Made by a program: the position numbers and the translations under genes
In this document: piece by piece, positions 5,501-57,237 of the stretch
Layout of the letters: each line of letters opens with the position of its first letter
How positions within the stretch are numbered: position 1 is the first letter of the stretch
Source of the DNA: Lingula anatina
Taxonomy: Eukaryota; Animalia; Brachiopoda
Direction of reading: 5' to 3'
Length of the DNA stretch: 64,000 nt
NCBI GenBank assembly: GCA_051362555.1
Contig: CM120645.1
Coordinates: 2,232,001-2,296,000 of the forward strand
Notes under the pieces: model-generated
What the model was told of the DNA's origin: nothing
The model's database searches: none
The model's input: the letters and a program-made list of their open reading frames with translations, nothing else

Positions 5501-6465
5501 TTTCTTTTTCTTTTGCTTTGCAAGAGCTTCTTGTCTCTCGTTTATCGCCATCCTTTCGGCCTTGAGGAGACCAGGGTCACATCCGGTGGTTGAGTAGAGC
5601 TTGTTACGGAAATGTTCAGCGTTCGCGTAATACAGGGAGGATTCAAAGTGAAAAATCTTTATTCCAGGAACCTCCTCGACCTAGACAAATAGAATTTAAC
5701 AATATTGGTAAAATATTCATGACTTGAGAACACAGATGTTTCATTTGGAAACCCGCTGCCTACAAGACAAAGGTTTCCATTTTCTTAATAACCGGATTCA
5801 AAATTCTTTGAGAAAATATCTTATATATCCTGTACTTAAATTTGACAATAAATATGCCATAAGCTAAAGTAACAGAGGCCTTCTCTTTGGCGCTGATCGC
5901 TAGTGTAATAATTCTAACAAGCTACGAAAACCCCAGCAACCATTTAATGGAAATAGACTTGGATGAAGATAAATCCGGGACGTACCACTTTGTATACGTT
6001 TTTGTCTCTGTATATATCTGTGTGAGGCACTCTACCAAAGAGACAACTGTACGGCCTGAAGCAATAAATAAATAAATAAATAAATAAATAAGACTTTTAA
6101 AATGGAATATAACAATAAATAAAACCAATCAAACCTTAACATGCTGAAATCGAGCACATCGATTCCATTAATTGAGACAGTAATTTAGACTGAGTTATAC
6201 TTCTAAAGTCATTAAAAATAATAGTCTGAACTATCCTAAGATTTGCAAACAAAAAAATTCGTGCAACACTCCACCAATGTACATGTATAGCTGCAAATAT
6301 AATGAAAAATGATCCATCTTCTGAAAAAAAAACTAGCTCTGACCCCACTTACCATTGTGTCCTGAAGACAATAGTGATGAGAGAGAACCCCACCCCTACC
6401 AGAAGTCCCATGTCCACATTGAGGAACACTACGGAGACGAAGGTGACTATCCATATGGCCTTAAA

Positions 6466-6516
<51 letters not shown>

Positions 6517-12174: not shown

Positions 12175-12211
<37 letters not shown>

Positions 12212-12643
12212 CAGTGACTTACCCTGTGGAAGGTGCATCACTCCCACCGTCAACCCAGACACCAGATCACCAACGAACCACTGGGGGAATTTATACTGCC
12301 TCATTATGGACACGAAGGGGAAGAGTCGGAGCAGAAACCCCTGGATACAGTCACGTGAGCATGCACAACGATTACGTAATTTACGCCGCACGTGGTGGGC
12401 ATGCTCTTTGGGAGTCTTAGACTTCCTCCGCTGGGAAAACCCATGGTGTTTGTCGAAGTGTTCTTGGGTAAAAACTCGGCGCTTAACAGTCACTGGTTCA
12501 TCTTCTCTCTCGAGTTGAACGCCATAGAGAGACGACGTTCTCTCTAGTTCTGAGGGTTGCTCTGTCGATCTCGCCCCTCTATTTCCGTTTTCCAAAGATG
12601 TATTCGCTAGAGGTTCGCGTTCATCTTTGCCGTTTTGGTCCAT
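2503..12643 (-). CDS. SLC26-family anion exchanger (prestin/SLC26A5-like), about 18 coding exons, with C-terminal STAS domain
   Basis: Exons with GT-AG ends: 12223-12643 (MDQNGK...[16 protein letters not shown]), 10646-10756 ([41 protein letters not shown]26 signature), 10002-10228, 9587-9757 ([28 protein letters not shown]), 9102-9257, then approximately 8560-8642, 8115-8262, 7549-7662, 7154-7231, 6816-6911, 6354-6459, 5985-6056, 5468-5680 ([16 protein letters not shown]), 5088-5264 ([23 protein letters not shown]), 4626-4680, 3949-4073, 3380-3475 and 2503-2589. The last exon and the specific orthologue are uncertain. Confidence 0.93.
7991..8094. mobile_element. Degenerate short MITE remnant in an SLC26 intron
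   Basis: CCCAGC...AACGTT at the left end and AACGTTCTGTGTTTAATGGG at the right end form imperfect inverted ends; ATAACGTT-like subrepeats lie between them. Confidence 0.4.
9266..9328. repeat. 21-bp tandem repeat, about 3 copies
   Basis: AATGATAGATCTTACCACTAT repeated in the intron just upstream of the acceptor of exon 9102-9257. Confidence 0.85.
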
Positions 12644-13739
12644 TTTTGAATGCAGTACCTGTGGCACCAGTACCCACCGCACCTACAACATGAAAGTTAC
12701 AGTGAACACGAGGTCGTGTTTGGGTTGATGCATAAATGGTTTTTAGGCTTAAATTGCCCCAGATGGGTGGTTTGGGTAAACCCCACTCTCTAGGATAGCA
12801 AGACCTCTGGATCCTGCTTCACCAAACAGTTTTGTTTGTTTTTTTGTTTTTTTTTTTTTTTTTTTTTTTGTTTTTTTTTACCTTGGCTAGGATCATAACA
12901 CTCTTAATTAGCCAACTAAATATAAACAGTCAACTTTGAGATGACGGCCTATTGACCAACAATGGTAATAAATATTATTATGGAACTGGCATAGAATAAG
13001 ATGTTATATTCGTCCCCATTGTTACGTGACGTTGCGGCCAACCATTCTTCGTGGACACTTAACGTGGACGGATAGTTGGGCTATCACATCATTAAATTGT
13101 GATTTCAATAAAATATAAAGTAATTTTCCATTTGCTTAACATATATCCTTGGAATAATCACACCATATTAAATAATTTAATAAAATAAATATCAGATTTG
13201 ACTTCCAGACAATATGGTGTTTAGCTGACCTGAAAAAAGTGATATCAACCTCAGTTGACCTCAGAAGAGTGGTATCGACCGAGGCTGGAAAACACTATAT
13301 TGATCGAAAGCCAAATTCGATAATTGTAGGCCTATAATAAAAACCTTTATACTCAGATGAACTCTAGTCGCCGCCTTAATCAGAAGCAACATTATGCATG
13401 TCAAGGCAAAACAAGTCAATGAATGAAAAAATTATAGAATGAAATATCCAATAGCTGTATAACTGTATGTTTAACACGTTTTTCGTAATAATACCTAATT
13501 AACTTTACATATAGCTGGAGAAGGGTCTAAGTTCGACTTGACTCTTGAAGCCACGAGCCGTGTAAGCCTATTACTCAAGGGTTAAATATATATTTTTGTA
13601 CATCTAAATAGTAAGTTAGGTATATACGTGCGTTAAACTATTAACCCACAAACATAACATTCTAAGAGTATTATTATGCCCACTGCACACCATAAAAATG
13701 TTTCTACATGGTTACATTTGTAACATAATTTTACCTTAA

Positions 13740-24452: not shown

Positions 24453-30125
<5,673 letters not shown>

Positions 30126-35184: not shown

Positions 35185-35920
35185 ATAATAATAAATAATA
35201 ATAATAAGATTCTTATATGGCGCCTTACATTCTATCTCAAGGCGCCTTACAATAATGGCTAATATACTAAAATCATTAAAATGACTACAATATTTTAATC
35301 ATAAACTCTCATTGGAAACCATTTAAAATTTATACTACTAAAAATCAATCTTATTAAAAACATATATATATTTAAATAAAATCTAAGAGATATAGACAGA
35401 ATTAAAAATGTGGGTCTTTAAAAGAGATTTAAAATTGTCAAAGTCTTCTGTTTTTCTAATAAAATTTGGTAGACCATTCCACACTTTTGGGGCGTAGATT
35501 ATAAAAGCACGATCTCCATAACATTTTAGGCACCCCTTCTCTAAAACAGAATGTTCTAAAATAAAATCATTCTCAGTATTAAAACGTGTGGACCGCCGTG
35601 GTAAGTTAAAACAGATAAGATCAGATAAATATAATGGTCCTTGTGAATGAATCGCCTTAAAAATAATACAGAGTACTTTAAAATCAATCCTCTGCTTCAC
35701 AGGCAGCCAGCGTAATTCTTTCAGAATGGGAGTGATATGGTGTGTACTATTGTACTTAATTTGACAAACCAGTCTTGCAGCTGAGTTTTGAATAACTTCT
35801 AACTTTTTAATCTGATAGTCACAAATACCAAAGAGGAGACTATTGCAGTAATCTAATCTTGATGATATAAATGCATGTACTAATTTTTCAGTGGTTTTGT
35901 TATCTAACACTTTCCTTATT
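35185..35920 (-). mobile_element. 5'-truncated L2/CR1-group LINE (end of ORF2, 3' UTR and (TTA)n tail)
   Basis: ORF 35383-35910 has LVHAFISSRLDYCNSLL, QNSAARLV, HITPILKELRWLPV, GDRAF...APKVWN and FKSLLKTH. The 3' end reads TGTAAGGCGCCTTGAG...GGCGCCATATAAG followed by TTA repeats. Confidence 0.92.
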
Positions 35921-36178
35921 GTAACATATGTAACATCTCAAAACAACTATATATGTAGACTGTAAAAGTCGTTTTTATTAATATCTTACATTTTTTAGAA
36001 AGTGAAATAGTGAAATTTTAATCACTGTTTTATTACCAATTCCTTCACAATATTATTGGTTTATAGTTTTCACCTGTAGACCTATTCGAAATGTAAATGC
36101 TACACAATGCAACCTCCCGAACAAACGAAACTTCCGGTAGGCATTAAGTCCCCAAGCCCCAAAATTGCCGAACAACTT

Positions 36179-37588
36179 TTAGCACAGCCGAAACGCAGTT
36201 TTAAGCTGGTCATCTGTGAGGATGTCGCCGTATATTTGGAGACATGACATGCGACCCTGGAAATTTCTATGTACTTTATGTCTTATCTTGGACCGAGCAA
36301 GGTAAAGGTCGTAGTTTGTATCAAAATAACCTCCTCCGCGCTTCTGAGTAGAAATGACCGTGTTAAGGGAGGCGTTCAGTCTTCCAGCACGCACCGTATA
36401 CAGCTCTGACGCCCGATGATACTGCACAACGATTTTCAACCACCTGTTCAGGGATGTGTAAAAGATTACAACTTCGTGCATTTGCTTATCAATTATTTCC
36501 ATTTGCTTTTGATGAATCCAATAAAAAACACCAAGTTTGTTGCTTTTAGGATCATCTATAAACCCCAAGGGCATTTCCCAATCGGGCAACCGTGTCGGCA
36601 TCAACCAAAACATCAAGGTTACAGAACCGTTTCTATTAAACAAGGAAGTGTTTCTTTTTGGAATATGTCCGAAAGAACTGTCGTCGACCCCACTAAACAA
36701 TATGGCGCCCCCCTCCTTCCCGTCTGGCCCCGGTGCGAAGCTGGTGTTATATGTCACGCCGTCGTTGCCGTTCCCACTAAGGTCCCTAAGTTCATTCTTC
36801 GAATCCATGGCCCAGAAACCAAGGGGATTGGGAAGGCCTGAATAAATGGATATAAAACTATAATTACATATGCAAAAATTATTAAAATGAAGGAGTACTA
36901 ACAACAAGCCTCAAAGCTTTAACACTGAATTTTATAAAAGACGCTTGACATATTATCCTTACTACACAAGTTACAATGAAAGATCTAATTGACATAGAGG
37001 AAGTGCATGTTATACAATGTATATCAGGAGTTATGTACAAAAAATCTCAAGTAGTCTAAGACGAATTTCTTTTAAATGTGGTACGTATGTCTATAGCTAA
37101 TCACTTCATGGTCATTTTCTTGCCTTGTGGTTTTCCATCTTACCTGAAAATGTCATTGGAGTCGGCTTAACAGTTGTCGTTGCTGTAGACGGAGGTACTG
37201 TGCTTGACCTCTCTGTTGTCGTCTTCCTGGTCGACATGGGAACCGATATAGTTGTTGATTTTTGTTGGGCTGAGGCTGCAACTTTACACTGTACATACTG
37301 CGCGGACAGATCGCGGTAGACGGCAGCAGTAAACTTCAGTTCCATATCCAAAGCAGTCTCCGTATTCCGCCGCCGGCCGAACTCAGGAGGGTAGTTAAGT
37401 CCGGTGAACTTTTGAACCAGGCCCGAACATTCTGCTAAGAGGTGTTGTTTCAAAGACGACAGTTTGTGATTCAGTACGTACAATTCCAATTGTTTGGAAA
37501 GGACGTTTCCAGTTGGCATAGCTGCACTTGTCAGGCAGAACTCGAAACATAGGAGAACTGCGATCTGGACCGATGTTAGCGTTCCCAT
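36179..37588 (-). CDS. Secreted protein of about 367 aa: signal peptide, helical Cys/GRRR module, Thr/Ser linker, LamG/ConA-like domain
   Basis: Exon 37144-37588 (MGTLTSVQIAVLLCFEFCLTSA..., donor G|GTAAG) joins exon 36179-36837 in phase 1. LamG-like motifs: PLGFWAMD, DLSGNGNDG, GPDGKEGGAILF, VTLMFWL and FQGRMSCLQIYGDILT. Confidence 0.8.
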
Positions 37589-37641
37589 GGTCTTTCCGCT
37601 TGTGTTGGAATGGTGACGCGAAAATGTACTTAAAGCGTCTA

Positions 37642-37649
37642 TGACGTCA
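37642..37649. promoter_or_regulatory. Perfect CRE palindrome about 55 bp upstream of the LamG gene ATG
   Basis: TGACGTCA, next to a weak TATA-like TTTAAG on the minus strand. Confidence 0.4.
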
Positions 37650-39327
37650 TTCGGCATTGCTTGATGGTTCTGGTCACACAAGAGGCAATTTGGTTTATTT
37701 TCACGTTAGCTCTACTATGGTTAAACACGTACATAACACACTGTATCTTTACACGTAGGGTCTGGTATCTACTACTAAATGCCACATTTCCAAGGCCTTG
37801 TGAAAATCTAAGATATTTCACGAAGTTGATTGGTCCAAGTTGGCCTTTCTTTGAGTGTTTACTTCTCTACCTTAATTCTGATGGACAGCAGTGCAAAATT
37901 CTGACCTAACCTTCTTTTAAGTTCACAGGTCTAATGGCGCTTTGCTGATAAGTTTCAGTTAAAGTCACGTTGCTCACTCCCAGTGATGACTTTCGCGACC
38001 TCATAAGGTGATTAACGCACGAAATGTGCATCTGTGCACCTCTCAATGATTAACTACCAGACAACATTAATACAACATGTGTATTAAAGGTACACAATGT
38101 CTATAAGACATTAAATTTATTCTTCTTAGCAAGATATTTAATTCAACGTGTTTCGTTTAATCACCTAGGTACATCTTATCCGAAACCACTGACAATACTA
38201 CGATTTATATTAGCAATTTAAAATTTACGTTCCCAGTCTGGTAATGAAAATAGAGAGTTCTGAGGTTCACTCACAATGGTGAAAATAGACATTCAAACCT
38301 CAAAATCTGCTTTATAGATTGCCATTTTCTGAATTGTTTTGGAAAAGAGGTACCACGCCCACTCACCCCCACATACCCCCAGTTTCTGCCACTGACGTAG
38401 TATTAAGGTACCCGCATGAGATTTTCTGGCGAGAATTTAAACAAATGCTAAATCGAATGCCTTCAAGTCTACAGGGTACCGTGATCGCATTTTATGACCT
38501 CATAAGTCGGTTAGAGCGCCCACGACTTGTGTGTGTGCATCTGTATAATTCTCATTGGTGATATACTACATGTGCTGGCAGACCCCTTAATGCCATAATT
38601 AATTGCAGTTTAACATTGAATTAAAAATATCCTTTCGTCATGTTTCCTAACGAAGAAGAAGGAATGTGAATGTTAATCATGAATTTAAAAACGCAAATGA
38701 AGAACTCGCAAACAGTACCTGGCGTTCTCTTTGCCTTTAGGTGACGGCTATTATCAATTCCATGAGTTTTATTCATCAAGTTGTGTTTGCATTTTTTTAT
38801 GCAATTATGTTAATTTCAGATTATTGGGAGAGAATAAATTCTTTTATCTTTGGTCGATATAAAGTAATATAGGTACAGTAGTACGCATATACCTTGCACT
38901 ACAGCGCGGTATCTTAACATAAACGAGATCCGAAGATTTAAACGTGGCATGTTTTAAGTTACATATTAAATGCCTATACTTATGAATTATGTGTTTTTTT
39001 TCTTTAATAATTACTTTCTGCTCATTCTGTTTCAAATCATTCGTTATGTAGCAAAATTCTTAAAGAATAAGAAAAATTAGTGAAGAACCAAGATTTAAAT
39101 AAAAAGCGTTTACCGGTGTTGAAAAAAATCCCCAGTCCTTAATTAAAAAGAGTGTAGGCCTAAAAACATAAAGTTAAGAGATGAAATGGATTTTCTTTAT
39201 GATAAGGTATTATCGTTAAACGTAATTTAAGAACAACAGAATCTAAATAAATGCAAAAAAGGATGATTCGACCTCAGTTGGAGAATTATGACTGACTTAT
39301 AGATAAAAAACAATCTGTAAAGTTCCA

Positions 39328-41876
39328 TCACAGTCTTAATTTCATTAAGGCCGAACTCAGCATACACGTTAACCCGCAGTTTACACCCGGTGCTGCTGTG
39401 CCTTCGTATCTTATACAGCGGTGCACGTCCGACCGACATATACTGTCTCGTGAATAGTGGGCGGTGAATTGGGCTTTGGCGCAGTTTTCATACCACCAGC
39501 CACCTCCGTTACTCAAGGCACAGCTGGATCCAGTGTTAGCGGCATTGTCTCGATCGAAAGTCGAAAATGCCAACCCCTGGGTGATATTAGCAAAACTGTC
39601 TTGCGTGACGTTACCTGAATAGCCATCTAGGTACAGACCGTAATTTGCCTCTTCTTCCGCGACGCGAAAGAGGCTGTATTGGATATAGATGGCGCTACTG
39701 GGAAGAGCGACCATGTCAACTTTTAAAGTTGCGTTGCTGTTTTGAGAATTGGTGATTTGGCTGAGAAGCTCCAGTCCAAGCCAATAGTCTCCCGCTGTAG
39801 AGTTTCCGAATCCGGTCTTATAATCCGCCCAAGTTCTGTTAAAATTGAGATCTTCGCTGGTCCGTTTTAGAAAGATTAACCAGCCGTCTTCGCACTGCGC
39901 GCTCTTTGTGAAGTTGTCGCATGCTATTTCCATGGTACCTGGATAAAAATGACATGAATGAAATTTCAAAACAGTTTCTTTGCGACTTTGTAGCAAAATA
40001 AAAGTTTCGCCGAAAAGTTTGGAAATATATTATATTTTTTAATATGAAATTTCCAAACTTTTCGGCGAAAGTTTTAAAAAATTCATGAATTACGATATCC
40101 AAATATCCAAACAATTTTTGAATAAAAAGAAAACTAACATGCTGTGTATAGTGTGTATGTTTGTGTGTATGTGTGTGTGCGTACTTTTGTGTGTATGTAT
40201 AAGTGTGAGGGGGGGTGGGGGGTAGAGAATGGGAACCTTACATACCCGAAAAATTAGCCGGACACAAAGTAGTGTTCAAACACCCATAAACCGGTGAGAC
40301 AGTAGAGGTAGCCACAGTAGTTAATTGCTCTGTGTTTCCAGTCGTGGTGGCATCCATTGACTGTGTCGTAGGCACAGTAGAAACTGTAGTCTCCATCGTC
40401 GTTGGTGCTTCTGTAGTGTCGACAGATCCAGCTGTTGTTGTCGTCTCTAATGCAATTATTGCTGTTGTAGTCAATAATGTGTCCACCACTGTTGACGATG
40501 TTGTCATTGTTGTTTCTGACGTAACTGTGGCTGTTGTTGACAAAGTGTCCACTGCTGTTGCTGTTGTTGTTATTGTTGTTGTTGCTGCACCAGTTACGGA
40601 CCCAGTGACCGTGGCTGAAGTTGTAGTGGACACAATGACCGGTAAACTGGGCACCCCGGACGCAATGGTGGACCTGTCTACCGCACTGCCATTTGACTGT
40701 AAGGGAACTGGGTAGATGTGACATTGTATTAGTATAAAATACATTCAGTTGGACATCTATATCGCATTCTATATATTAAGTTTTTATTTAAGCATTTTAT
40801 CTATTTAACAGAGTAATTATATATTATTATTTCATATTTTATTATGAACGACGACTATTAATAAAGAATCTGAGAGAGATCAAAATAGATAAAAGTTGAA
40901 ATCATAATTATAGATAAAAAGTAGCGTCTTAACTATAGTTTTGCCTAATAAATTAAAGAACTTTAAAAAAGATAAGTTACAATTCAAAAATTATTCAACG
41001 TAAGTGTACAAACTATAAATGTTTGCAGTACAAAAGGGGTGCATGTTTTAACAACGGACAGATTTCAATTTTAATTCATTGCTTTTGGACCTTCAAGTAG
41101 TCGAGATCTTCACTGATCAATGTCTTTTAATAATATTGCGATGAACAAGCTGTCCCATTTCTGATATTTTAGTTGAATATCCCACGAATAACAAAACTTC
41201 TTAACATTCCTGTATTTTAGAAAAACGAACAAACGTATCGTCAAAAAAGTTCCATTTTTCTTTCCAAATTATTCGATTTTGATAGGGACACTAAAACGTA
41301 AGAAGAAAACAACGCGAAAGAACGTGCTGCTTTAGGGTATCGACCGGAATATTGTAAAATTAATAACTTAAGTGCTAAAATTTTGTTTCCGGCTAAAGTA
41401 AAAACTCAAAAATGAAAGACATTGCGAGGATTAAGGTAGTGTTTCGAACATTAAACACAAAAAGTAAATACAAGTGGGCGTCTTTCATAAGTAGTGATAG
41501 AGAAAATGACTATATATTTGCATATGGTGGGCCGTTCATCAATGTTGGATATCCTCACATCACGCACAGATAGACCTAATGGCGCCAAAAGTCTTTATTA
41601 GTAATCCAAAAAGTATCATATTTATTCAAGACGTTGTACAAGTACTATCGGCAAATAACGAAAACGAGATCTAGAGATGTTGTTTTTTAAAAATGGTAAT
41701 AGATCCAAGCAGAACTTGCTCGTTATAAAGATCGATTCAGATTATTAGATGCGGTCGTTCCGAACCTTGGGTGGACTTGAAATCGTATTTGACGCTACAC
41801 CAATGTCAAGGAGTGTCACATAAATAAACAACGTAAAAGCCGGCGATATGAGCTTGTTGGCATTTTCCCGTCGCAT
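39328..41876 (-). CDS. Fibrinogen-related (FReD) protein with Thr-rich mucin stalk, predicted secreted, about 390 aa
   Basis: FReD exon 39328-39938 (GWLIFLKR, FNRTWADYKTGFG, YWLGLE, FSTFDRDN, CA...GGGWWYENC) and mucin exon 40246-40696 (phase 0-1). Putative signal exon 41766-41876, MRRENANKLISPAFTLFIYVTLLDIGVASNTISSPPK (phase 0 donor AAG|GTTCGG), is less certain. Confidence 0.8.
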
Positions 41877-43096: not shown

Positions 43097-43753
43097 TAAT
43101 AATCTTTTAAGTTATTATTAACTAATGATAACTATATATACTATTTCTACCACAGCCTGTGGATTGAAATCCTTGGAATGTAATGGTTTTCTGGAACATT
43201 AAGATCATCAAGAAAAAAGTGTCCGGTGCATTTATTTATCCTCCTCAACCCTCAAGATCACAAATCCCTTAAGGCAATATCGCAATATATTCCGTTAACA
43301 GCACAACAAATTAGCACCCATCGCATTAATTATCTTTAAGCTAATCATTACATATAGAATGATCTTGCTTAATATTGTCAAGTGAGATAACAGTTACTGA
43401 TACTTTGATGGATATTTTATCCTTTATTTTATTATTTATTTATATTTTTGATGTAAGCATAATAGAGTAGTGTTAGAAGAACCTTAGACAGCGAACAATA
43501 TTTAAATGTGTTACACTTAAAAGCTGAATAAATTATTATTATTTTTTTAATGGTCAGTTTAGGGCATTTTTCAGGAATGACCATATGGGACCTAAACATG
43601 CGTCATTTTTCAAACTTTGTGAAGTGCCGCTATATCCATTTTAAAAGAGAAGTGAGGGTGGCTGAAACACTATCCAACCCCCACCCCCATCCCTACCCCA
43701 CCACACCCCTGGGGCCGCCTATGACGTTGTTAACACTTTTAAGACACACTCAC

Positions 43754-44033
43754 CGTTTGCAAACAGCACGAGGGGCACAATGATAGCGACCAGAACTCCG
43801 ACCATTAAGACCCCCACCAATACCGCAATGAACACGTGCAGAGGCCTCCATCTTATGCACGGCCCCCGCCTCACTTTTCCGGGAGATCCGCGTGGATGCA
43901 CACGGCTTCCCTTCATCTGAAGTTCGTATGCCTCGGCAACTTTCGCCCTCATCATCGGCAGCCTGTCATAAAATCCTCCCCGTCTGAGGTGATAAAGAGT
44001 GTCCGTGCTGGTGTTGCCGCTGGCGTCCGACAT
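43754..44033 (-). CDS. First coding exon with cytoplasmic tail and type II signal-anchor; downstream partner exon unresolved
   Basis: MSDASGN...RWRPLHVFIAVLVGVLMVGVLVAIIVPLVLFAN, ending at a consensus donor G|GTGAGT (phase 1); GC-rich, coding-like composition. Confidence 0.7.
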
Positions 44034-46466
44034 GACGACGAACCGTCATGTCGAATGTCAGTCGGTTTTTTTCTTGTGCGACGTGCGTTGTTGGATAACT
44101 AAGGCTGCGGCTGTTCTAGCACTGTTTTCACTCGCCAGGTGTTTTCGATGTTGAGGTGTGATGGAACGTGCAGGTGTCGACTTTATCTTGGGGTGCGCCG
44201 GTGTTAGATTTGTCTCCAAATTCTGTTCGACTGTGAATACGTTCTTTAGTCATATATCCTTCATTCGCCGGGATCGTCAGAGGGGTGTGCCGAGGTGATC
44301 TACTGTCAAACTAGTTTCAAAACCTGCGGCGTTTAAGTTAATACTGACTAAGCTTCCATGTAACCTATGTCAAAGTGAGAAGAAAAAAACAGTTCTCTGT
44401 AATGAGGCATAATTCGTAAGCTGTCAGAAGTTTTGTGAAGTTTGAGGACGCATTGTTATCTGCACGGTGGCACAACGATATTAACGATCTGCGTGAAAAA
44501 CTTCAAGCAGCGATTCTAGAAGCGTTAAATAGTGCTAGAGTTATTGTTGACATAGATTCAAAACGACAAAATGTTACGCATTCAGTTTTCACTTGAAGTC
44601 TTCGGCCTAATTGGAAGCCACTGCGCAACGGCGTCCTTAGCTGTTATGATGCCTCCTCAATGTCAGTGACACTGCAACGTCCTCGTGCGGGGATCTGTTT
44701 AAAGACCTCGGGCGTTCATTGGAAGTTTTTAACCTTGATGTTTAAATGAATCTTTTACGCCGTATCAGTGATGTAATCCTCGACTACTCTATCACAACAC
44801 AGGTTATTCAATGCCTCTTGCAATACTATCTTCCCAAGGTTTGACTTAAATAATACCTGTAAAAAAACTCAGTCATGAGCATTAAGTGAATGAAGGGCTG
44901 ATCGCTTCTCTCTGTCTCTCTGAAGTTTTCTAGACGACTTGACGACACTCTGTTTTCCAATCCACTGACTCGTTAAACTCGTTAAACTTAGCTTTTAGTT
45001 ATCAGTCAATTTTCTCTTAAATTTTGAGCGCCTCCATATTGAATGTAACAACTCACAGTGTTCCTATACAGTTCTTAGACGGCGCAATGTTATAACAACG
45101 AATTCAAGTAACTGATTCCAGTAATACTACTCTAAAATATGTGCCATCATTCACTTTAGAAGCCCCTCTTCATATGTCATTCTCTACGCTTGCGTGTAGG
45201 CCTATATATATGCCTTGAACGCCAGTGAACCGTTTTCACTTTGCGTTTCCTATGTCAACAAATACATGGCCTTTTCCCCCAAGTCAAACAACGTTTGTAA
45301 AACGTCAATGTTCGTGCCGAGCTCGGATGAGCTGAGCTCTCTCTAAATATACGTTTACTTACGTCAAAAATTCCAGCGTGATATTTTTATAGAAAATATA
45401 TTCATAAGAGTTTCAGTGATTCCTTCGCACGGCTTATGGCTCTGTTTTCTTGTTGAGTTCTTCTTTAAGCTACACAAGTTGACAGAACTCACTGGCGCGC
45501 AGCGACACAGTTTTTTTCACTCTCTCTCCTTGCTATTTTTGTTTTGCAGTGTATTATACAAAAAATAAATATGCCTACGTTTCATGTCTTTTTTTACACA
45601 CTGCGACAGGCCTAGGACGGCAAATTGTGGGGTACTTAAAGTGTCATTAGTATGATGAATTGTTTAAGTATAGTCCCTGAGAGCATAGGCGTGGTACTAG
45701 TCAAAGAGACATCGCAGCAAGGATTTTTTTTTACCATCACTCAGTTCAAACACATGCACTATGTAGTTGTGAAGTTTATAGAAAAAAGCCCCAAGCATTC
45801 TCGGTCCAGTGCGCTTGGGTGGTTTACCAGGGTTTACTCTTGTTGATTCTGTTAACAAAACTTTGGCTTAAGATGCCTTTTGAAGTTGACAATCTGACTG
45901 TGGTGACACGGCCACCGACCCGTCAAATGCGATGACGGGGTGTCGAGTTAGTTTCTCACTGGTCAAGCCAAGTCCTCTAGTTGATCCTTAATGTCCTGGC
46001 AAAGAAGTGACTTATTGCGACGTACAGTACTTCGATCAATTGCTATGACGAAAAAGCTGCGACAGTGCAGGATATTTACAGCAATTGCATTGTTTTGAAC
46101 TAGACTCTTTGTCGAATTAATCAAGCCGAGTTTAGATCTATGCTTGGTAAGCATAAACAATCCTACAAACGTGAATGGGTTCTCTGGGCGTCTCTATTTT
46201 ATTTGCACGGCTCCTATTTGCGCCGCTCCTCTTCAAACAAGAATCTATAAAGTATTAGACACAATTAAAAAAGCTGATAATGGTCATTCGTTGTTCAAGT
46301 CATTTCCAGATCGCCTTGACCCGCAGAGTAACAGATTTTAACATTATTGAAAAAGGTATATCCACGTGAATCCAGGAATCGGGTCGCATTCCACGTTTTT
46401 AAAATCGCCAAACTTGCACATTATCAATCGAACGGACGGTTGATTTGACGTCTTCGGTCTCAACCG

Positions 46467-46843
46467 TCAATCACGTTTCGACTGACCGATTGCGTTAAAC
46501 ATCTGCCAGGTCAACAAACACATTCTTGGTAAAAGAATTGCGTTTTATGGGTGACTCGCCAAAGAAGTGCGGTACACGTCTCCTTTTCCTTTCCTAACAG
46601 AAACATGGACTCGTCGTCACCTTGAAGCGCACTCCAGTGATCGTCGTCCGGGTCTACTCAAGACGATCGCTCAGTTAACTCGACACTTTGAGAGTCTGTC
46701 AATCACGTTTCGATTGACCGATTGCGTTTAGCATTAGCGAGGTCAACAAGCACATTCTTATTAAAGGATTGCGGCACGTAGACGACTCGCCACCCATTCC
46801 TCTGGTAAACAGCAACAGAGACATGTCGCCGCCTTGAAACACA
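46467..46843. repeat. Diverged direct duplication, about 150-165-bp copies spaced about 231 bp apart
   Basis: GTCAATCACGTTTCGA.TGACCGATTGCGTT...GGTCAACAA.CACATTCTT...GACTCGCC occurs at about 46467 and about 46698. Confidence 0.8.
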
Positions 46844-48266
46844 TTATTCCCTCACGCCTTTAACTGTGCGCTAGAAACGGACGACTTCTCACCGGAATGG
46901 AAAACAAGAGACGTTAACTTGTGCCCGCATTCAATCGGTGACAAAGGGTTTTTTTTTCTACCTGCAGCTGAATAATCGAGGAGTTGATATTCGCTGTATT
47001 CCGCCTAACTCACTGAATATTATATGTGTCACCAACTGCAGTGGTGTTTAAACTTGCAACAGTGGTCCCTCCTCTTGGAAAACGAAAGTACCTTTCTACC
47101 TCTTCCATTTCAATCGTCATCAATTCTTTGATCAAAAGCGTCCCTGGAAGGTGTGCCTACATTCGTCGTCAGCAGTAGCACAGGGATAAACACGACGACA
47201 CTAGTAGAGTTACTGGTACTTAGTAATTGGGGCCATATTTCACCCTTTCAAAAGATTTTTTATCCGCGTTATCATCTGCACTTTGAGGCATCTCCAAATC
47301 ACTGATACTTAGTGCTAATATTAAATGGGAAGGTTTTGTCTCTTTTTTATTCTTTATTTTCTTATCTGATGTGTTGAAATAATTACCAATTAACTTTGAT
47401 CAAGGTCACTTGTTCATAGAATCGCGCAGTTGCGCAGCCCTTTTATACTGATCCGCATACTTTCGAATTCAAAAATTAAAATGAAGAGAAAAAACACACC
47501 TCCTATGTCGAGTGCCAATCCTGCGCAAGGGTTACATATCATTTACCTACTAGAGTGACAACATCTTCTCTAGAATGGCATGATTCAATAAAATACCTTT
47601 GACAGGCACAAAAAAGAGCGATTTTCTTTACGCGTACGTGAGCATGTCTGTCGCGTCTTAGGTCAATTGGTGCGTTAGGTTTTTTTACGGGTGTTTTGCA
47701 TACCTGGAATTATCGTGTCATTGGTTTATTTTCATTTCTCTCACGTTGCCCACCCGCACCCCCCGTATATTTTAACAGGAGGATATATGATGTTAGCACA
47801 CCCCTCGTCCGTCTTTGAATAACAACGATATCGGAAGATTTATTTCATGATTCATTTTAAAAATCCATTATAGTTACTTGAATGGATCATACATCTGTTA
47901 CATATAGCACTGTTTTAACATGTACAGTGATTTACATTTTTGATTTAGAAATCAACCTGCATTTTAGAACGTACATACTTTAACTTCCCTTTTCCTTCAT
48001 TTTTCAATAATGATGTATTGTCACCAGATGGAATAAAGAAAACCGTGATATTTCGTGCATTCGACCGTTATTGAAACATGTTCATGTATATAGATAACAA
48101 TGGCGGCGTAAAAGCCGTGATTCGCGATGCGAGAACAACGGGAAATTTTCATCAGCTGCGTCGAATTGCAGCTGGTTGTGCTGTACGTTGCAGCAGTTGG
48201 GTAAAATGCGCTAGATGAGTTTCGCTGTAATCTCCCCTGGACCCCCCTCCCCCCTCTCCCCCTCTC

Positions 48267-48300
<34 letters not shown>

Positions 48301-51300
48301 GTGACTAGCCTTAGACAAATGTGTTTTTTGTCTGGATTCTTCACCTTTAACTTTACTAATAATCAAAGCTGGACCAGGGGGGCTGGGGGGGGGGGGGTCG
48401 AGACCTGCTAGAGAACGAGGGTGGCATCACTATTTATCCATAAAGTAACGACATGTACTCACTGGTCACTCAACCATTGACAGTTAACGTATTAAGGCAA
48501 AATCAACGTAAAATAACTCCCATTGACAACAAGCGAGTAATCGATATTCCAAACTTACCCGTGTTATCGTAACTGGGTGGTAAACAAACATTATAAAAAT
48601 ATTTTGTAGCGGAGCCAACTCTTCCTGTTTACGTCTGCCACCAGATTTTTAATCATTTTCAATGTATTTCTTCTTATTGATAAAATGAAATATTAAAGAC
48701 CAAGACTGTTTGTTTTTATTGAGTGCAAATCAACAAGTAGGCCTATAATTTGCCTTTATGGCCGATCTTCGAGATTTTTATTTCTTCGTTTTGATCAAAA
48801 CCCCGTCCTGTAAAAACAACATAATTACGACTTACAGAAAGGGGTAGTTTACTGGTGCATTCAACTATATACATTTTACATGATTTTACAACATATAAAA
48901 GTTCAATGTTCACGAAGTCGGTAATAAGATACGAGAGAAAGGGTACACGGGTGCCAATTGCGAACACCACACGCATAATGATTGATGCAATTTTTTAATC
49001 AATATTTTAAAACAGAGGGAAGTCCCCTCCACCCCACCCCACCCAGCCCCTGGCCTTCACCACTTCCCCTCTTTTAACTCTCAATCGTCCACTGGAGTGT
49101 CCAAAATGTATGCCAGCGCACCCAGGGCATGGGGTACTTGGTGACCCCAGCTGTCAGCTGGAGTAATTAACCAGAACAAGCAATTAGACACCCCGGACAG
49201 ACGATACCAGATTCTTGTGGGGATCCTATAAAACTGGGAATGGCCATTAGCGCGATAGTGCAACAGACAGCTGGCGGACGTGATCGAGAACCTTGAGGTG
49301 GCAAGACGCTGGCGGCGTGGGTAGATGCGTAAACGTGTTGATGTTGTTGTCTCTATGGCAATCTGCCATTGGTTAAGTTTTCTTGAGGTCAAGCTGCCCC
49401 TAAGCAACATGATTTCTTTTCGAGTGGGAATCCATTTGGTGTAATATTACTGTGACAAATGAGTATCTTTACCTAACGCTATTGACTACCGTTTATATTT
49501 TGCGTATTTGTCCCAGTCTTGATTGCAAGTAATAATCGTTAAGCAGCGTGCGGCACTGTCTGTTATTTCCCAATGTTGATAAACAGTATTTAACGGAAAA
49601 CAAGGTGCTTGACGTATTTACTGTAGGAATAGGGACTTTCTTGGTGCAAACCTCCAGCTAAGGCTTCCTTTTCATTCTACCCTCTCTCTCTCTCTCTCTC
49701 TCTCTCTGCCTGAAGTTTGTCAAATGCTCCCCATAGCATTTAATGAGAATCTGTAATTCTTTTATGCTTTTTATCACACGCACAAACACACCCACAATTC
49801 TTGTAAGAAGTTTTTTTCCTTTGGCAGATTTAAGAAGTTCTTAACATTATTACAGATCAACAAGATTCGGCTCAGTTTTCTATTTTTCTTGGCAGACTTG
49901 AGAATCAAAGTGACATATAAACTGCAAGAACCAATAACATGTACTCCCCCACCCGATTAAGTCCCTCGATTTATGAATATAAATTTCTGCTGGCATTTTG
50001 CAGAATTCTTTAGGATATATATCCAGGGTACAGTTACAGAGGTCCATTATTTTGGATAATGTTCAGCTCCTAAGACGAAACTTATGTTTAAATTGCCATG
50101 AAAATATAACGATGATATTTTATCTAACCGCTTTGATTCATTTCATTGTTTATAATGTTAGCGGTAGATGAGTTTTCAGGCAAAGGGTATACAACTGCAT
50201 TACGTGATTTTGGATAATTGATATGTTAGCCTTCTTCGAGGTTAAAGTTTCAGTTGGCACCTGAAATTCTAGAGTAGCGACGAGAGTTCATTAAATGAGT
50301 GGTTTTGTTACCGGTTTTGTTGAGATCTGTAATGCAGCAGGCTGCCAGAGTACACGATTTTGCCTAAAAGCCATTCTCCTCCACGTACCCTGATAACTTG
50401 AAATAAAGATTTTAATTAATTTTTATCAAAATAAAAATAATGGAAGACTTTTTCTTCGACCTAGTTTGTTTATCTGGTAATTATTTCACTGTTTCATATT
50501 TATATCTTTCTTTGGTGAAAAGGCATTTTCAAAAAGGCATTCTTATTGTAGTAAAATTTACGTGGAGCACGTGTTATATCCAGAACCTATGACAAGTTCT
50601 GATGGTAAGTCAGTAGTTAGGAAGGTAATCCAATATGTCATCGTATACATTTGCCGAAAAAGAAAGACGGGAAAAAAACTGAAGTGAGAGGAAGTCGGCA
50701 GTGATGTTTCCGTCCAGAAACAGATGTTTGCAGTTAGTTGTTCAAGGGCAATGTTCAACGACATGTGCTGAGATGTTATCACTGCCGGCTGGCGTTAGTC
50801 TTGCGCAACGTGTTCTAGTGCATCAGACTTTTTACGTTCTTGGTCCCTTTTCCGATTCCCGATTTCAGTTATAGGCAGATTATAAAAAAAACAAAACACA
50901 AGCGGTTCAACTTTCAAAAATCCAGTATTCGTTTTATTTGTACTGGTGGCATGCACAGAATATATAATGTGTACTCAAATTGTTGCGACAATTTAATAGT
51001 AGTTTTAAGAGATAAAAATGTATCTTGAGTCGCACCCACACGCTTGCAACTACATCAAAGTGATCTGGATAACCCCAGCAATATGTCAGCAATTAAAGTT
51101 GACATTTAAGTATTTTAGATTATACAACAAAACTAAACAATTTAGATTGAAAACTTTCGAGACGTTTTAACTTGCTATAAACAAAGATATACAGGACGAA
51201 GTTTAATCCCTGCAAAAATGATACTAAAAATTTCTATGTTTCCATTTCCTCATTTCATTTTTAGTTCTCATTTTATCTTTTATTCTAACTTATTTCATGT

Positions 51301-51925: not shown

Positions 51926-52786
51926 TCGAATACTGTACGTATTCAATTACAAAAAAAAATCATCACAGTTCACTTCCTATTAGGAGACTTGTCTCTTGGA
52001 GGAGGTCTCTCTCGTAGGCAATATCACAGTCAAAATTTGTTGTTTTTAACAACAAAAAAAAAGTATATAATAAACACGTCACAACCACGTTAAATAAGAA
52101 TTGTCTTAAAGACGAATAAGTTAAGAGAGTATGAATAAAATATTAATAAATACCACACATGTTGGACGAAGACGTGAAATTTTCACAATAAATTACGTCA
52201 ATTACAATAACTTAAATAAAAAACCGTTGCAATAAATTAAATGGATACACTTATGAATATTATACATTACAGCACTGTATATGAGTAATCTCCTGTCACA
52301 AACGCTAGCCTTAACTCCAATGGACCGTAAGGACAACTGACAAAAAATAAATGAATTGCGGAAACATAAAACTTGGCTCACGGAAGCCCATGTTTCCATG
52401 CACGGAGAGAGACATAAATTGGGTATGATTTAACAGAGCTTCCGTGCATGTCCACATTTTTGAGAGGCCCGGCCGAGACTCGTCGTACTGCCAAAAGATA
52501 TTCCGCAGATTTAGTCGGATAAGAGATTCCTATTCGATTGTTGGTTTGAAAACAACACCGTATTTTTTAATAAATACGGAATATTAGAATTGTTTGATAT
52601 CCCTACACATCGTCAGTTCCCTGATTTTATGAATTCGTTTTTGGAAGGAATTACTCATGCGTTATATTAAGATTTCTAAAACTGTTTCTACATGTACCTC
52701 TAACTCTACTACTTCGACTAATACTTTTCTTCTACTTAATCTGCCTCCTATTCTATTTCTTAAAAATAATACTAATAACTTATCAT

Positions 52787-54316
52787 TTAAAATGGCACAC
52801 GCTCCCATCCAATCGGATGAAAAAGTCCGTCTTGTTCGTCCTCGGAATTTTCCGTCGCCCGTCGTTGTCGTGAGTTTCCATGCGTCTTCTCTTCGTGTGG
52901 TACGAATCCCCAGTTCTCCCATCCCTCGGCGTGGAACAAACCGTCCTTCTCGGGCTTGGCGGCCCGCCTCACGCGGATAACGTCGGGGTCGATGGCGGCC
53001 AGACGACTCATTATGGCCGATTTCTTTTTAGATTTTAGTCCTTCATCTCCCAGATTCATTCTGGACATTCTGAACCTTTTGCTTGGGATTAAAATCACGT
53101 GAGGATCTATGGGGCGAAGACGGGAGAAATATTTAGAAAGAGCACCAGTGCTTCTTTTAAATATTTGAATCACTTCGGGGTCAATATTTGAATCATCGTC
53201 TGGGATGTCTCTTTTTCGTAGGACCTGTATTACAGCGGGGTCTATACTGCTGTCCTTGGTAAACTTTGGGGATTCAGTGCTCCTTGTAAACACTTGAATT
53301 ACACCAGGGTCAATGCGAGAAGCGCTGTTGGGACGCGTTTTTCTTTTAACAACCGATACAACGTGAGGATCGGTCACTTCTACAGCGTCACCGTCCACTT
53401 CTCTCTTCTCGCGGTTGGCCCGACCGTCGTCGCTGCTAACGCGGTCTCGATTGTAATCGTTGGGTAATAAGTCCTCAGGGAAGAAGTAAAGACCATCCCA
53501 CGCCGCTCTCTTCATGCGGTATTCCCTGACAATGACACCGCTCTCCTGGTCATCACCTGAGAATAAAAGAAAATGACAAATTTAACCACTTTCAAGTATT
53601 TATTTTTAGCATTAAGAGCCGGCTACCAGAAATACAGTCGCGTGTAAGTCTCACTTTAAGTTCAAACAGACGCAGGAGTGACGGCCAAGATGAATAAAAT
53701 GAAGATTTATTACCGTTGGTGATCTTTTTGTTACATATAGCAAAGATGACTGTTTGGTATATAAATAGAACCTAGCCTTGGATAAGTTGTCTTCTGCTTG
53801 ATTGTGTACTTTTTTTTCACTCTTTTCAATTAATTTGTATGGAAATTTAATATTTGAGATCTCAACGAAAACTTTTGCTTTTTTTAATTTCATAAATGTC
53901 GAATATAGCGGACTTCGTTCGTTAAAAAAAGTTCTAAGATTCAACCACTTGGCTTTTATACATAGCTTTTTAACACATTTCATTTGAACTGTTCATAATA
54001 AATTTTAAGTTTCTTTCATGTGCTGCTATATTTTGTAATCCTTACAAAGCCCCTGCAATTTGTACTATGACTGAGCTCAATGTTTGTCGTTAGGATAAAT
54101 ACTAAACTATTTACGCTTACAGTTGATATGTTAAGGGTAACAAACGAGAAAAAATTGAATTGAAGACTTCAGTAACACACTAGTCGTTGCAGAATCGAGT
54201 GAAAGTAACTTACCTAAAACTTCTCCCAGCGTTAACGTTGGAGCTGCTGTGCAGAGATGAAAACACAGTACAACCAGCACGCTAAGAATGATCCAAGTAT
54301 CTCCAAAAATCACCAT
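52787..54316 (-). CDS. Secreted multi-copy peptide (neuropeptide-like) precursor, about 290 aa, two coding exons
   Basis: Exon 54214-54316 (signal peptide MVIFGDTWIILSVLVVLCFHLCTA, donor G|GTAAGT) splices in phase 1 to exon 52787-53556. Many KR/RR/RKR sites flank six [I/T]DPxV[I/V] repeats and three DGL[Y/F] repeats. Confidence 0.85.
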
Positions 54317-55232
54317 ATCTGTAAGGAGACAAATTTACAACTCAGTAAAACAATGAACATAATACACGTACACCAGCCAAGGCGTCAATTCTCTTGCTGC
54401 AAGCGAAGCAGAAATGAGCGCGTTTGGCGGAAAAAACACGTTTTATACCGCGAAGTTATTTCACCAAGCGAAGAAAAAAAATACAGATATTTTCCACTTC
54501 TCTCCCTGTGTGTTTAAACGAGACCGCATGCTCACCGTTAAGCCCATCCCAGAACGCTAGGAAAATTTGATTGACAGATCCCAAGGTTAAATTCTAGCTG
54601 GTCATTTTGGAAAAAAATCAAATCATGTATAGTGACCGATTATTGACTCCGTGATTTGCTCGTTATGGGCCATTACGTGCATTCCTAAAATATTTTATGC
54701 GAAGTTTTAATCGCAATTCGGAAATTAAGATAAGTGTAATTGTCCATTTCCTCCACTATGTGTTGTGCTAATGGAGCAGTATGAGGCCTGATGTTTTAGT
54801 TCGACTAGAAAATTGTGTTAACTGGAGACATTAGCCCCAGGGTCAGTGTCTTCAGCAACCACTGTAAAACACTAGAAACGTGCGAATGCGACATTTATGT
54901 AATCTACGATACAAACGCGCGGTGCTACAACACGTGGCAGTTTGCCCGCTGCTGGAGAGAAGCGGCAAGTTATCTTAAGTCTCAGGGAAAAAAAAGGTCT
55001 CACCTTGCCTTATGTTTCTTGATTTTTTTCTATCGGGTAATATCTTTCCAAGTTGTTCTCTCAAATTCAGTGCTTTCTTGTTGCTGTCTCGCTCTTGAAT
55101 ATCTTCAAACTAGAAGTCACCTCCAGGAATTAAAACGTGTTCCAAATAGATACCGGCTTAAAGTCGTACCTAAGGTAATACCCTTGTAGGTTCTTAAGAT
55201 TTAATCTGGCGACTTGAAGAAAGAGGGGAGAA

Positions 55233-55239
55233 TTTTATA
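55233..55239 (-). promoter_or_regulatory. TATA box candidate for the peptide precursor gene
   Basis: CTATAAAA on the minus strand, upstream of a non-coding exon ending at donor AAG|GTGAGA (55004); acceptor 2 nt before the ATG; CRE-like TGACGT at about 55340. Confidence 0.5.
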
Positions 55240-57237
55240 GAGCAGCGCCTTGAGTCATGGCGGCTAAATATAGCAACGCTCAGTAGGACACGCGAGGTAA
55301 GGCGAGACGCAGTACAACGCGGATGGGGAATCCCTTATTTGACGTAGGCGTGGCCTCCGCCACAGGAGCGTCCGGTACTGTTAATCTGAGTCGCTTCAAT
55401 CAAATTATCGTCGATCACAGGTTGATTTTTACAGGAAGCCAGTTTTGTGGAGTTCGCCACTTTAACAATAAACGCTCAAGTGTCTGAAACATCAGTCTCT
55501 TAAGTATGAGGAAGTATTAGTCTGCGGTGACCTACGTGGGGAGTGGGGAAAACGGGTTATGCATGGTTACATACAAAGTCTTGGGGTATACCACTAAGAT
55601 TATAGAGAACATTATATTTAATTATCTAATAAAAACCAATTTGTCAGCTGAACCGAAATCTTAATCGGAAGAGGACCGGGGACAATCAACGTAATATATC
55701 TCAAAGGGTCCAATTTTATGCCGCCTAAACGTCTAACCGAATATTAGGTTTGCCACGAAAACGCAAAACATACGCTGGCTGTTCCAAATTTTATGAGCAT
55801 TGCCTGAGACGGGTTGACATGGCACACGTGTGAAGAAGTGTTTAAGAAAAAACGACGGGTATTATTAATTGAGGAGTGTGGCACATTTATTAAAACTGTT
55901 CGACTTCATCACCGGCAATAATAAATCATCGCTTTCTGGAAGTCTCGAATTTTGTGATTTTTGGCATTGTGGTTATTGCTTATGATTTCATCACTTCGCC
56001 ATGATTGAAAGAAACCACGGAACTTTTTTATGTGCGTTATGACGACAATCCGCGTAAAACATTTCATTTTCTCTGACGGTTGTGCAATGCACCTTTTCTG
56101 GTTTTAGAAATATATGATTAAGTCGAGATGCAAATTTAAGGCCAAATTCACACCATGCTCAGAAAGTTCGATTTCGAATCGATCCTAGTTATTGTACAGC
56201 GCGTACGTCTCTTGTGGTCTAACCGACGTGTACATTGGATATTGTACAGACTCTAAGGGATTCACATTAAGCGTTTTGCGCTTCGTGGGAGTCGCAACAT
56301 CTAGATCACAATAAATACACTGTACTTTAGCTAAGTGAGCTGAAACGAGGCCAACCTAATGTAGATCGATTCGGGTGGAACTATCATAATCTAGTGTGAA
56401 CGTCATGGTATTATGTCTCATGTAGGACGTATCAGACGTTGACTGGATCATATGGTTCATACACACATTCAGGAAATATTGTTTTCCTAACAGACGCATT
56501 ATAACCCACTAGCCGTAAGATAATGTCCTTTACGTGACAAATTCATTTCAAAAACTGGACACGCGCGTGTTTAATTTTATCCCAGGTTATTACAATAAAG
56601 CTAACAGGCGGGCTCTGCCTCGCCCAGCGCTTCCTCTGCCAGAATTGAGTTTAAGACCTAAAACCTGTCAAAGAACAAGTTAAACCCGAGACTTGTAAGC
56701 CTTCTTGTCACGCGCTTTTTTTTTTTTTTTTTTTTTTTTTCACTGTTTATTCTGTGTTTCCTTGAGGTACTTGACTTGAGTTTCCTGTGCATGTCAAATT
56801 GTTAATTTCTAAGATCGACCCTAATAAAGGTCTTTTTTTTCTAAAATCACTTTTTTCTACTTAATGATGTGCAAAAGACATAGCCAGAACTTTCAAAATA
56901 CAAATTAGTACATCGTCGATTTGAACTGCAGTTTTACTTTCGATTTCAAATTAATTTTCATTTTTGTTTGCGTACATCAAACAAGAAAAAACAACCAAAC
57001 TGTATTGGCGACGGGAAATGAGTCCTTCATCTACTCAGCTCAAAAAGGTACATTTGTAAAGGAATACACACTACTTTTCTAAAAATATAATGGCCAGAAG
57101 GTAAATTTCGGCAATATAACCCGAGTGCGTTGCAAGTGAATACACAAGGCATTAGTGTGTCCGCAATAAGGTCTCATGTACCTTATCACGCTCATTGATT
57201 GTGCCAGTGCTTTTATGAATGTGAGTGTCCGTGCGTG

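What the first reader, a model, noticed from the sequence alone, without database searches (positions are those of the whole stretch)
52787..54316. Unrecognised two-family peptide precursor (IDPxVI x6 plus DGL[F/Y] x3)
Seen: splicing two separately listed ORFs gives a signal peptide followed by an array delimited by basic residues. Family A: EVDGDAVEVTDPHVVSVV-KR, SASRIDPGVIQVFT-R, DSSIDPAVIQVL-RKR, DIPDDDSNIDPEVIQIF-KR, LRPIDPHVILIPS-KR and LAAIDPDVIRV-RR. Family B: AAWDGLYFFPED at the N-terminal end, and EKDGLFHAEGWENWGFVP and EQDGLFHPIGWERVPF at the C-terminal end. No Gly precedes the cleavage sites (so no amidation) and there is no Cys after the signal peptide. The motif is conserved in protein while the DNA is diverged, which suggests selection. 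TATA, CRE-like and poly(A) signals frame the gene. Established: this architecture is typical of prohormone-convertase substrates. Inference: an undescribed signalling-peptide system. The closest analogy I know is the non-amidated pedal peptide/orcokinin class, but it does not match the known consensus.
Basis: partly seen in the sequence, partly recalled or inferred. Interest (0 to 1): 0.85.

Follow-up and report, generated by a model that had tools for sequence, protein, structure and literature searches.

The report
Orphan peptide precursor in a brachiopod
This is a real, spliced and transcribed gene of the lamp shell Lingula whose protein has a predicted export signal and repeats of two short motifs; it is likely cut into two kinds of signalling peptide that we did not find in the brachiopod neuropeptide lists we searched, but no peptide, tissue or receptor has been shown.

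Summary
The window is Lingula anatina. The 290-aa spliced protein matches RefSeq 'uncharacterized' LOC106174741 and LOC106159463, one residue off each. RNA reads confirm the 54214/53556 joint and add a non-coding 5' exon. DPxV x6 and DGL[F/Y] x3 exceed all 20,000 shuffles, and 5 of 6 DPxV copies sit 7-10 residues before a dibasic site. Against a diverged population, pN/pS is about 0.19, and about 0.10 in the motif cores (40 of 61 differences visible). No true homologue was found among 1.84 billion representatives, in Pfam or in PDB. It was not found in the brachiopod and mollusc proneuropeptide supplements or the Lingula shell-proteome list searched. Lingula pedal peptides 1-3 are other genes. 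Corrections: family B peptides are not cleanly bounded, and no AATAAA lies in the read-covered 3' UTR. Best reading: a lineage-restricted, non-amidated neuropeptide or peptide-hormone precursor (0.6). Processing, neural expression and a receptor are untested. Lineage-specific precursors are common in spiralians, so interest is moderate.

The parts
55234..55345 (-). Candidate promoter: CRE-like ACGTCA (55345), AP-1-like TGACTCA (55257), TATAAA (55239-55234)
   Evidence: Motif positions; just upstream of the 5' limit of read cover. Function inferred; TATAAA occurs about 1.1 per kb per strand in the window.
55004..55210 (-). Exon 1, non-coding, no ATG (5' end approximate)
   Evidence: Joint 54318/55004 in 9 (X18) and 10 (X19) reads, depth in bins 54984-55251; no ATG in 55233-55004
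54319..55003 (-). Intron 1, 685 nt, GT..AG
54214..54318 (-). Exon 2: start codon at 54316, predicted signal peptide (residues 1-24, 54316-54245) and first pro-region residues
   Evidence: Hydropathy peak 3.4 at residues 9-19; the only confident helix, 3-23, in AF2; cleavage after C-T-A judged by the -3/-1 rule (SignalP not available)
53557..54213 (-). Intron 2, 657 nt, phase 1, GT..AG
52787..53556 (-). Exon 3 coding part (residues 35-290): nine dibasic clusters, four of them RxKR/RxRR
53450..53506 (-). Family B copy 1 (residues 52-70, DGLY; C-terminal border uncertain)
   Evidence: R71 is Q in the diverged population
53348..53401 (-). Family A copy 1 (87-104), KR...KRK
53285..53338 (-). Family A copy 2 (108-125), ends at a single R
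   Evidence: 80% DNA-alike to copy 4 over 40 nt
53219..53281 (-). Family A copy 3 (127-147), ends at RKR
53159..53209 (-). Family A copy 4 (151-167), RKR...KR; the cleanest predicted product, 17 aa, net charge -6
53081..53152 (-). Family A copy 5 (170-193)
52970..53020 (-). Family A copy 6 (214-230), ends at RR
52871..52963 (-). Family B copy 2 (DGLFH, within segment 233-265)
52790..52858 (-). Family B copy 3 (268-290), after RQRR, ends at the stop
52100..52786 (-). 3' UTR (end approximate), no canonical AATAAA
   Evidence: read depth to bin 52036-52169

Best explanation
This spliced, transcribed Lingula gene encodes a protein with a predicted signal peptide and nine repeats of two motifs, and is likely a prepropeptide that convertases cut into two families of non-amidated neuropeptides or peptide hormones. 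Shown: the exon structure, transcription, the two motif families, their position relative to basic sites, and purifying selection. Inferred: entry into the regulated secretory pathway; cuts by PC1/PC2-type convertases at KR, RR and RKR, by furin-type enzymes at the four RxKR/RxRR sites and at some single Arg; trimming of basic residues by carboxypeptidase E; release of six 10-21-residue phi-D-P-x-V-I peptides with free hydrophobic C-termini and up to three DGL[F/Y] peptides; action on one or two cell-surface receptors, most likely GPCRs. The repeats arose by internal duplication, and the family appears confined to Lingula in the databases searched.
For: Splicing and transcription. Motif counts far beyond shuffles. 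5 of 6 A copies have a dibasic site 7-10 residues after the Asp, against 15% of positions overall (window chosen after seeing the data). KR enrichment, 15 of 5,000 shuffles. 22 synonymous vs 15 non-synonymous codon changes, pN/pS 0.19 (binomial p 1e-6); cores 9 vs 3, and all three changes (Y58F, T96S, H187D) keep the motif; the one change at a basic site, K50R, keeps it dibasic. No Cys in the mature part, no N-glycosylation sequon, no Pfam domain. Passes the published multi-copy-precursor regex. The top three ESM Atlas neighbours are all neuropeptide precursors, at 0.82-0.88 (leads only, under 0.9). Not in the accession-based Lingula shell-proteome supplement. Read counts differ strongly between runs: X19 408 and X18 180 on the 4-kb stretch, X19 193 and X16 9 on the 781-nt stretch.
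Against: No mass-spectrometry, tissue or receptor data. Core-plus-basic residues are not significantly more conserved than spacers (4 of 101 vs 11 of 154 changed, Fisher p 0.22), and spacers are also constrained (pN/pS 0.28). Only 40 of 61 differences were visible. Family B copies 1 and 2 lack close C-terminal basic sites, and R71 is not conserved. The A peptides vary at their C-termini and have no common N-terminal cut. 243 of 5,000 shuffles also pass the regex. No homologue in any other species, so cross-species conservation of the peptides cannot be checked. Two surveys that screened Lingula did not list it.
Confidence: 0.6

Rival explanations
1. The protein is processed into peptides in the same way, but by a non-neural gland: a pheromone, gamete-activating, mucus or defence peptide precursor.
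For: Same layout; orphan status and strong run-to-run variation fit fast-evolving exocrine products. Multi-copy non-amidated egg-jelly and pheromone precursors are known in marine invertebrates (recalled, no call).
Against: Purifying rather than diversifying change between populations. The products are neutral or acidic (net +2 to -6), unlike typical cationic defence peptides.
Confidence: 0.15
2. It is a very diverged fourth pedal-peptide/orcokinin-type precursor and would act through that system's receptor.
For: Non-amidated, multi-copy, two peptide types in one precursor, as in Lingula pedal peptides 1 and 2. In copies A3 and A4 the register (hydrophobic-Asp, seven residues, two hydrophobic residues last, then RKR/KR) matches Lingula PP2 by eye. 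D-P also occurs in the echinoderm core (D/E)-P-(L/M) (PMC5069636).
Against: The pattern hydrophobic-D-x-hydrophobic-[GAS], which I drew from the supplement's pedal peptides, occurs 0 times. D-P is followed by H, G, A, E, H or D, never L/M. There is no N-terminal Phe. Lingula PP1, PP2 and PP3 are separate, typical genes. No sequence link.
Confidence: 0.12
3. The protein stays largely intact as a disordered secreted scaffold in which phi-D-P-x-V-I are repeated binding motifs (an Asp-Pro helix cap or a short beta strand), with a structural or adhesive role.
For: The conserved part is internal, not at the predicted peptide ends. Spacers are also constrained. The protein is R/K-rich, so dibasic clusters alone are weakly enriched (375 of 5,000).
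Against: Fixed spacing of motif to dibasic site (5 of 6) and KR enrichment. Not in the shell-proteome list. No Gly-, Ala- or Cys-rich structural composition.
Confidence: 0.08
4. It is a granin-, proSAAS- or 7B2-like helper whose hydrophobic-basic segments inhibit or chaperone convertases rather than signal.
For: A6 ends in a hydrophobic-R-V-basic-R run that resembles the proSAAS inhibitory hexapeptide (recalled; the term appears in 3 of 7 listed papers, listing only).
Against: Only one of six copies looks like it. The residues next to the basic sites are the variable ones. Lingula has a typical 7B2.
Confidence: 0.05

Closest known systems
RefSeq LOC106174741 (XP_013411870.1) and LOC106159463 (XP_013391207.1), Lingula anatina 'uncharacterized protein'
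   Same: Same 290-aa spliced protein; one residue differs from each.
   Different: No function is attached, and no paper in the library names these accessions.
Pedal peptide/orcokinin-type precursors (Lingula PP1, PP2, PP3 in PMC8557429 supplement; echinoderm SMP type, PMC5069636)
   Same: Signal peptide, multi-copy non-amidated peptides, basic-site borders, two peptide types per precursor, hydrophobic C-termini, hydrophobic-Asp core.
   Different: No D-x-hydrophobic-G/S/A core, no N-terminal Phe, no (D/E)-P-(L/M); long variable N-terminal extensions; Lingula's own PP genes are other loci.
Lineage-restricted spiralian proneuropeptides (AxxxDF, LKFL, ND, WWS, DMF, GxGH in PMC8557429; NGEW, YTL, QERAS, LEQ in PMC3890597)
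   Same: Same class: multi-copy precursor without a known relative outside a narrow lineage.
   Different: The motif differs from those whose sequences I saw (AxxxDF, GxGH, HIGA, LXRX). I did not read the LKFL, ND, WWS, DMF or Platynereis sequences. Several of those families have MS or cross-species support; this one has neither.

Membership tests
Multi-copy prepropeptide (neuropeptide/peptide-hormone precursor class) | N-terminal signal peptide | tested here: met
   Hydropathy, confident helix 3-23; SignalP itself not available
Multi-copy prepropeptide (neuropeptide/peptide-hormone precursor class) | Repeated similar peptides flanked by basic cleavage sites | tested here: met
   Family A: 5 of 6 copies followed by a dibasic site; passes the published regex. 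Family B only partly.
Multi-copy prepropeptide (neuropeptide/peptide-hormone precursor class) | No folded domain in the pro-region | tested here: inconclusive
   No Pfam match above cut-off and no credible PDB match; the single-sequence AF2 model has pLDDT under 50 for residues 32-290, which is expected with or without a fold
Multi-copy prepropeptide (neuropeptide/peptide-hormone precursor class) | Peptides more conserved than spacers across species | tested here: inconclusive
   Within Lingula pN/pS 0.10 vs 0.28, Fisher p 0.22; no other species available
Multi-copy prepropeptide (neuropeptide/peptide-hormone precursor class) | Mature peptides present in vivo; expression in neurons or endocrine cells; receptor activation | not testable with these tools
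   Run tissues are not given; no MS data
Pedal peptide/orcokinin | Non-amidated multi-copy peptides between KR/KK | tested here: met
Pedal peptide/orcokinin | Hydrophobic residue, typically Phe, near both termini (PMC5069636) | tested here: not met
   The last residue is hydrophobic in 4 of 6 A copies (A1, A3, A4, A6); none begins with Phe or has Phe before the Asp
Pedal peptide/orcokinin | Core hydrophobic-D-x-hydrophobic-small (my pattern from the sequences) or echinoderm (D/E)-P-(L/M) | tested here: not met
   0 matches to the first; D-P followed by H/G/A/E/H/D
Lingula shell matrix proteins | Listed in the shell proteome | tested here: not met
   The PMC13425148 supplement uses XP_/LOC ids and holds neither locus; the 2015 list (PMC4595640 supplement) was not searched

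The most novel reading that the evidence does not exclude
A two-ligand peptidergic system that arose anew in the lingulid lineage by internal duplication: one precursor co-releases Asp-Pro-capped IDPxVI peptides and DGLF peptides, neither amidated nor disulfide-bonded, to their own so-far orphan receptors. That would give a case for tracing how a new ligand-receptor pair is born in an otherwise conservative neuropeptide complement.
Probability: 0.4. Interest if true: 0.55.

Novelty: new member of a known kind. Interest (0 to 1): 0.36.

Why it matters
If processed and neural, it adds a family to the brachiopod neuropeptide complement that two surveys covering Lingula did not list. It supplies ready-to-synthesise ligands (A4 and B3 have the clearest borders) for testing orphan brachiopod GPCRs. 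It also suggests a blind spot: the protein passes the Thiel et al. regex, but their pipeline deleted unconnected sequences, so single-lineage families can drop out; whether that happened here is an inference. It does not change the view of peptidergic signalling, since lineage-specific precursors are common.

Tried and rejected
No genome held for the window, so paralogues, the second RefSeq locus and synteny could not be examined. Word-index searches: near lengths, only P0001 among 449 candidates; longer proteins, region 110-235, 0 of 401 at E<=10; shorter, 0 of 52. Full HMMER search: 2 hits, itself and P0003. P0003 was rejected as a tandem-repeat ORF (DUF4462) whose score sums nine 29%-identity stretches and which lacks both motifs. 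Pfam RPAP1_N was below cut-off. The PDB hit 8gaq, entry C5HR2_4r, had 0 stretches passing alone (that it is a designed repeat protein is recalled). The AF2 single-sequence model was uninformative beyond the signal helix, so no fold search was run. ESM Atlas hits were all under 0.9. No RNA holder was listed by the index; raw-read runs were laid instead, 6 of 9 listed. X12, X13 and X15 gave 0 reads, which is no test because no control stretch was laid. Literature: accession search 0 papers; motif full-text search unrelated papers. Supplement searches were negative for the family motifs; 'DGLF' occurred 8 times, the 2 shown were GPCRs, and 'DGLFH' was 0; two De Oliveira files are cut in the store. 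One search failed on wrong name guesses. Earlier scan findings: nothing by sequence or place; two unrelated notes. Complex prediction was not used, as there is no candidate partner.

Full report
Observation. Joining minus-strand 54316-54214 to 53556-52787 gives an open 290-residue frame: a hydrophobic N-terminus (peak hydropathy 3.4 at residues 9-19), nine dibasic clusters, six [I/T]DPxV[I/V] copies and three DGL[F/Y] copies. The motifs are far beyond chance: DP.V 6 against a maximum of 3 in 20,000 shuffles, DGL[FYW] 3 against a maximum of 1, and no gapped three-letter pattern reached six copies in 2,000 shuffles. Cys occurs only in the signal region, and the only Gly before a basic residue is in a spacer, so no amidated or disulfide-bonded product is predicted.

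Source and gene structure. The protein is Lingula anatina 'uncharacterized protein' LOC106174741. A second model, LOC106159463, is on record with a different contig length. The two differ at residues 37 and 109, and the window has one residue of each. They are probably alleles assembled apart, given the reported 1.6% heterozygosity (PMC4595640, passages); this is an inference, since no genome was available. RNA reads show the predicted joint (2 reads in X18, 7 in X19) and a second joint, 54318/55004 (9 and 10 reads), to a non-coding first exon; the 3' UTR is covered to about 52100. Both introns are GT..AG, and exon 1 has no ATG. The TATAAA at 54447 is therefore intronic. TATAAA 55239, an AP-1-like site at 55257 and a CRE-like half site at 55345 lie just upstream of exon 1. 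No AATAAA lies in the covered 3' UTR. Of six RNA runs laid (nine listed), X19 and X18 gave 408 and 180 reads on the 4-kb stretch, X16 gave 9 where X19 gave 193 on the 781-nt stretch, and X12, X13 and X15 gave none; the blanks are no test and tissues are not given.

Selection. Runs X19 (RNA) and X10 (DNA contigs) come from a population mostly 90-99% alike and share the differences listed. The 40 best-supported of 61 differences in the last coding exon change 37 codons: 22 synonymous and 15 non-synonymous, pN/pS 0.19 (p 1e-6 against site counts). In the nine-residue motif cores the count is 9 to 3 (pN/pS 0.10), and the three changes (Y58F, T96S, H187D) keep or improve the match to the motif; K50R keeps a dibasic site; no indels were listed. 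Against my reading: spacers are also constrained (0.28), the core-plus-basic versus spacer contrast is not significant (4 of 101 vs 11 of 154, p 0.22), and single Arg at 71 and 109 are not kept. Copies A2 and A4 are 80% alike over 40 nt of DNA, which points to internal duplication.

Processing logic. Five of six A motifs have a dibasic site 7-10 residues after the Asp, against 15% of all positions; the sixth ends at a single Arg. KR pairs are enriched (6 vs 1.8; 15 of 5,000 shuffles), while dibasic clusters overall are only weakly so (375 of 5,000). Four sites are RxKR/RxRR. A1, A4 and B3 have clean borders. By established convertase and carboxypeptidase E chemistry (general knowledge) this layout would release 10-21-residue A peptides with free hydrophobic C-termini and longer B peptides. 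That they are released, where, and onto what receptor is inferred.

Relatives. Three word-index searches and one full HMMER search of 1.84 billion representatives found no relative outside this cluster. The one other hit is a tandem-repeat ORF lacking both motifs. Pfam and PDB gave nothing credible. The top three ESM Atlas neighbours in both searches are arthropod neuropeptide precursors at 0.82-0.88, a lead on architecture only. Short-peptide orthologues often escape such searches, and other brachiopods may be thinly represented, so 'orphan' means within these collections.

What is known. Thiel et al. 2021 (PMC8557429; I read the abstract, sections 5, 6 and 21, supplement parts 1 and 61 of 387, and five supplement searches) list 44 precursor groups in brachiopods, with Lingula among six species. 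This protein's motifs are absent from their supplement, and Lingula pedal peptides 1-3 and AxxxDF are clearly other sequences. The protein passes their dibasic regex (so do 243 of 5,000 shuffles), and their method removed unconnected sequences, which may explain the gap. De Oliveira et al. 2019 (PMC6425005; passages and two supplement searches, two files cut) include Lingula entries but not these motifs. The 2026 shell-proteome supplement (PMC13425148; passages and two searches) uses RefSeq ids and lacks both loci. Full-text searches for the accessions and motifs found nothing relevant; subscription journals are largely outside the library. Pedal peptide/orcokinin features from PMC5069636 (passages; also PMC4772807 passages) are met for layout but not for the core motif or the N-terminal Phe, so I do not file it there; a distant derivation stays possible (0.12). 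Conzelmann et al. 2013 (PMC3890597; passages and section 12) and Thiel et al. show that species- or phylum-restricted precursors are common in spiralians.

Verdict. A real, expressed, selected secretory gene with a convertase-substrate layout and two motif families not found in the lists searched. Most likely a lineage-restricted, non-amidated neuropeptide or peptide-hormone precursor (0.6), with exocrine peptide precursor (0.15), diverged pedal-peptide type (0.12), uncleaved scaffold (0.08) and convertase helper (0.05) as rivals. New member of a known kind; interest 0.36.

Noticed in passing
window 4985-12682 (-): Multi-exon SLC26 anion transporter gene: Sulfate_transp and STAS matches above cut-off.
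   Followed up: partly
window 24975-27206 (-): Class II aminoacyl-tRNA synthetase exons (Pfam tRNA-synt_2b); seryl-tRNA synthetase by eye. Useful as a synteny anchor.
   Followed up: partly
window 36182-37705 and 39331-40744 (-): A Laminin_G_3-like exon (just under cut-off) with an upstream signal-peptide/Thr-rich exon, and a fibrinogen C-terminal domain exon with a Thr-rich mucin-like exon.
   Followed up: partly
window 35386-35937 (-): 184-aa open frame that looks by eye like the C-terminal part of a LINE-type retroelement protein; no matching Pfam family.
   Followed up: no
window 43722-49446 (-): Several GC-richer short frames, one with a single transmembrane-like stretch; possibly one unassigned multi-exon membrane-protein gene; no Pfam match.
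   Followed up: partly
window 52709-52719: In run X18, 6 reads show 25 extra letters with an 11-base step back in the 3' UTR, like a small insertion with a target-site duplication.
   Followed up: no
window 54284-54287: In X18, 6-7 of 17 reads show a one-base insertion and a one-base deletion three bases apart in the signal-peptide exon; frame-restoring, probably adjacent substitutions in one allele.
   Followed up: no
window 52390-52457: Imperfect 17-nt inverted repeat (82%) in the 3' UTR; one of 23 such pairs in 4.5 kb, may be chance.
   Followed up: no
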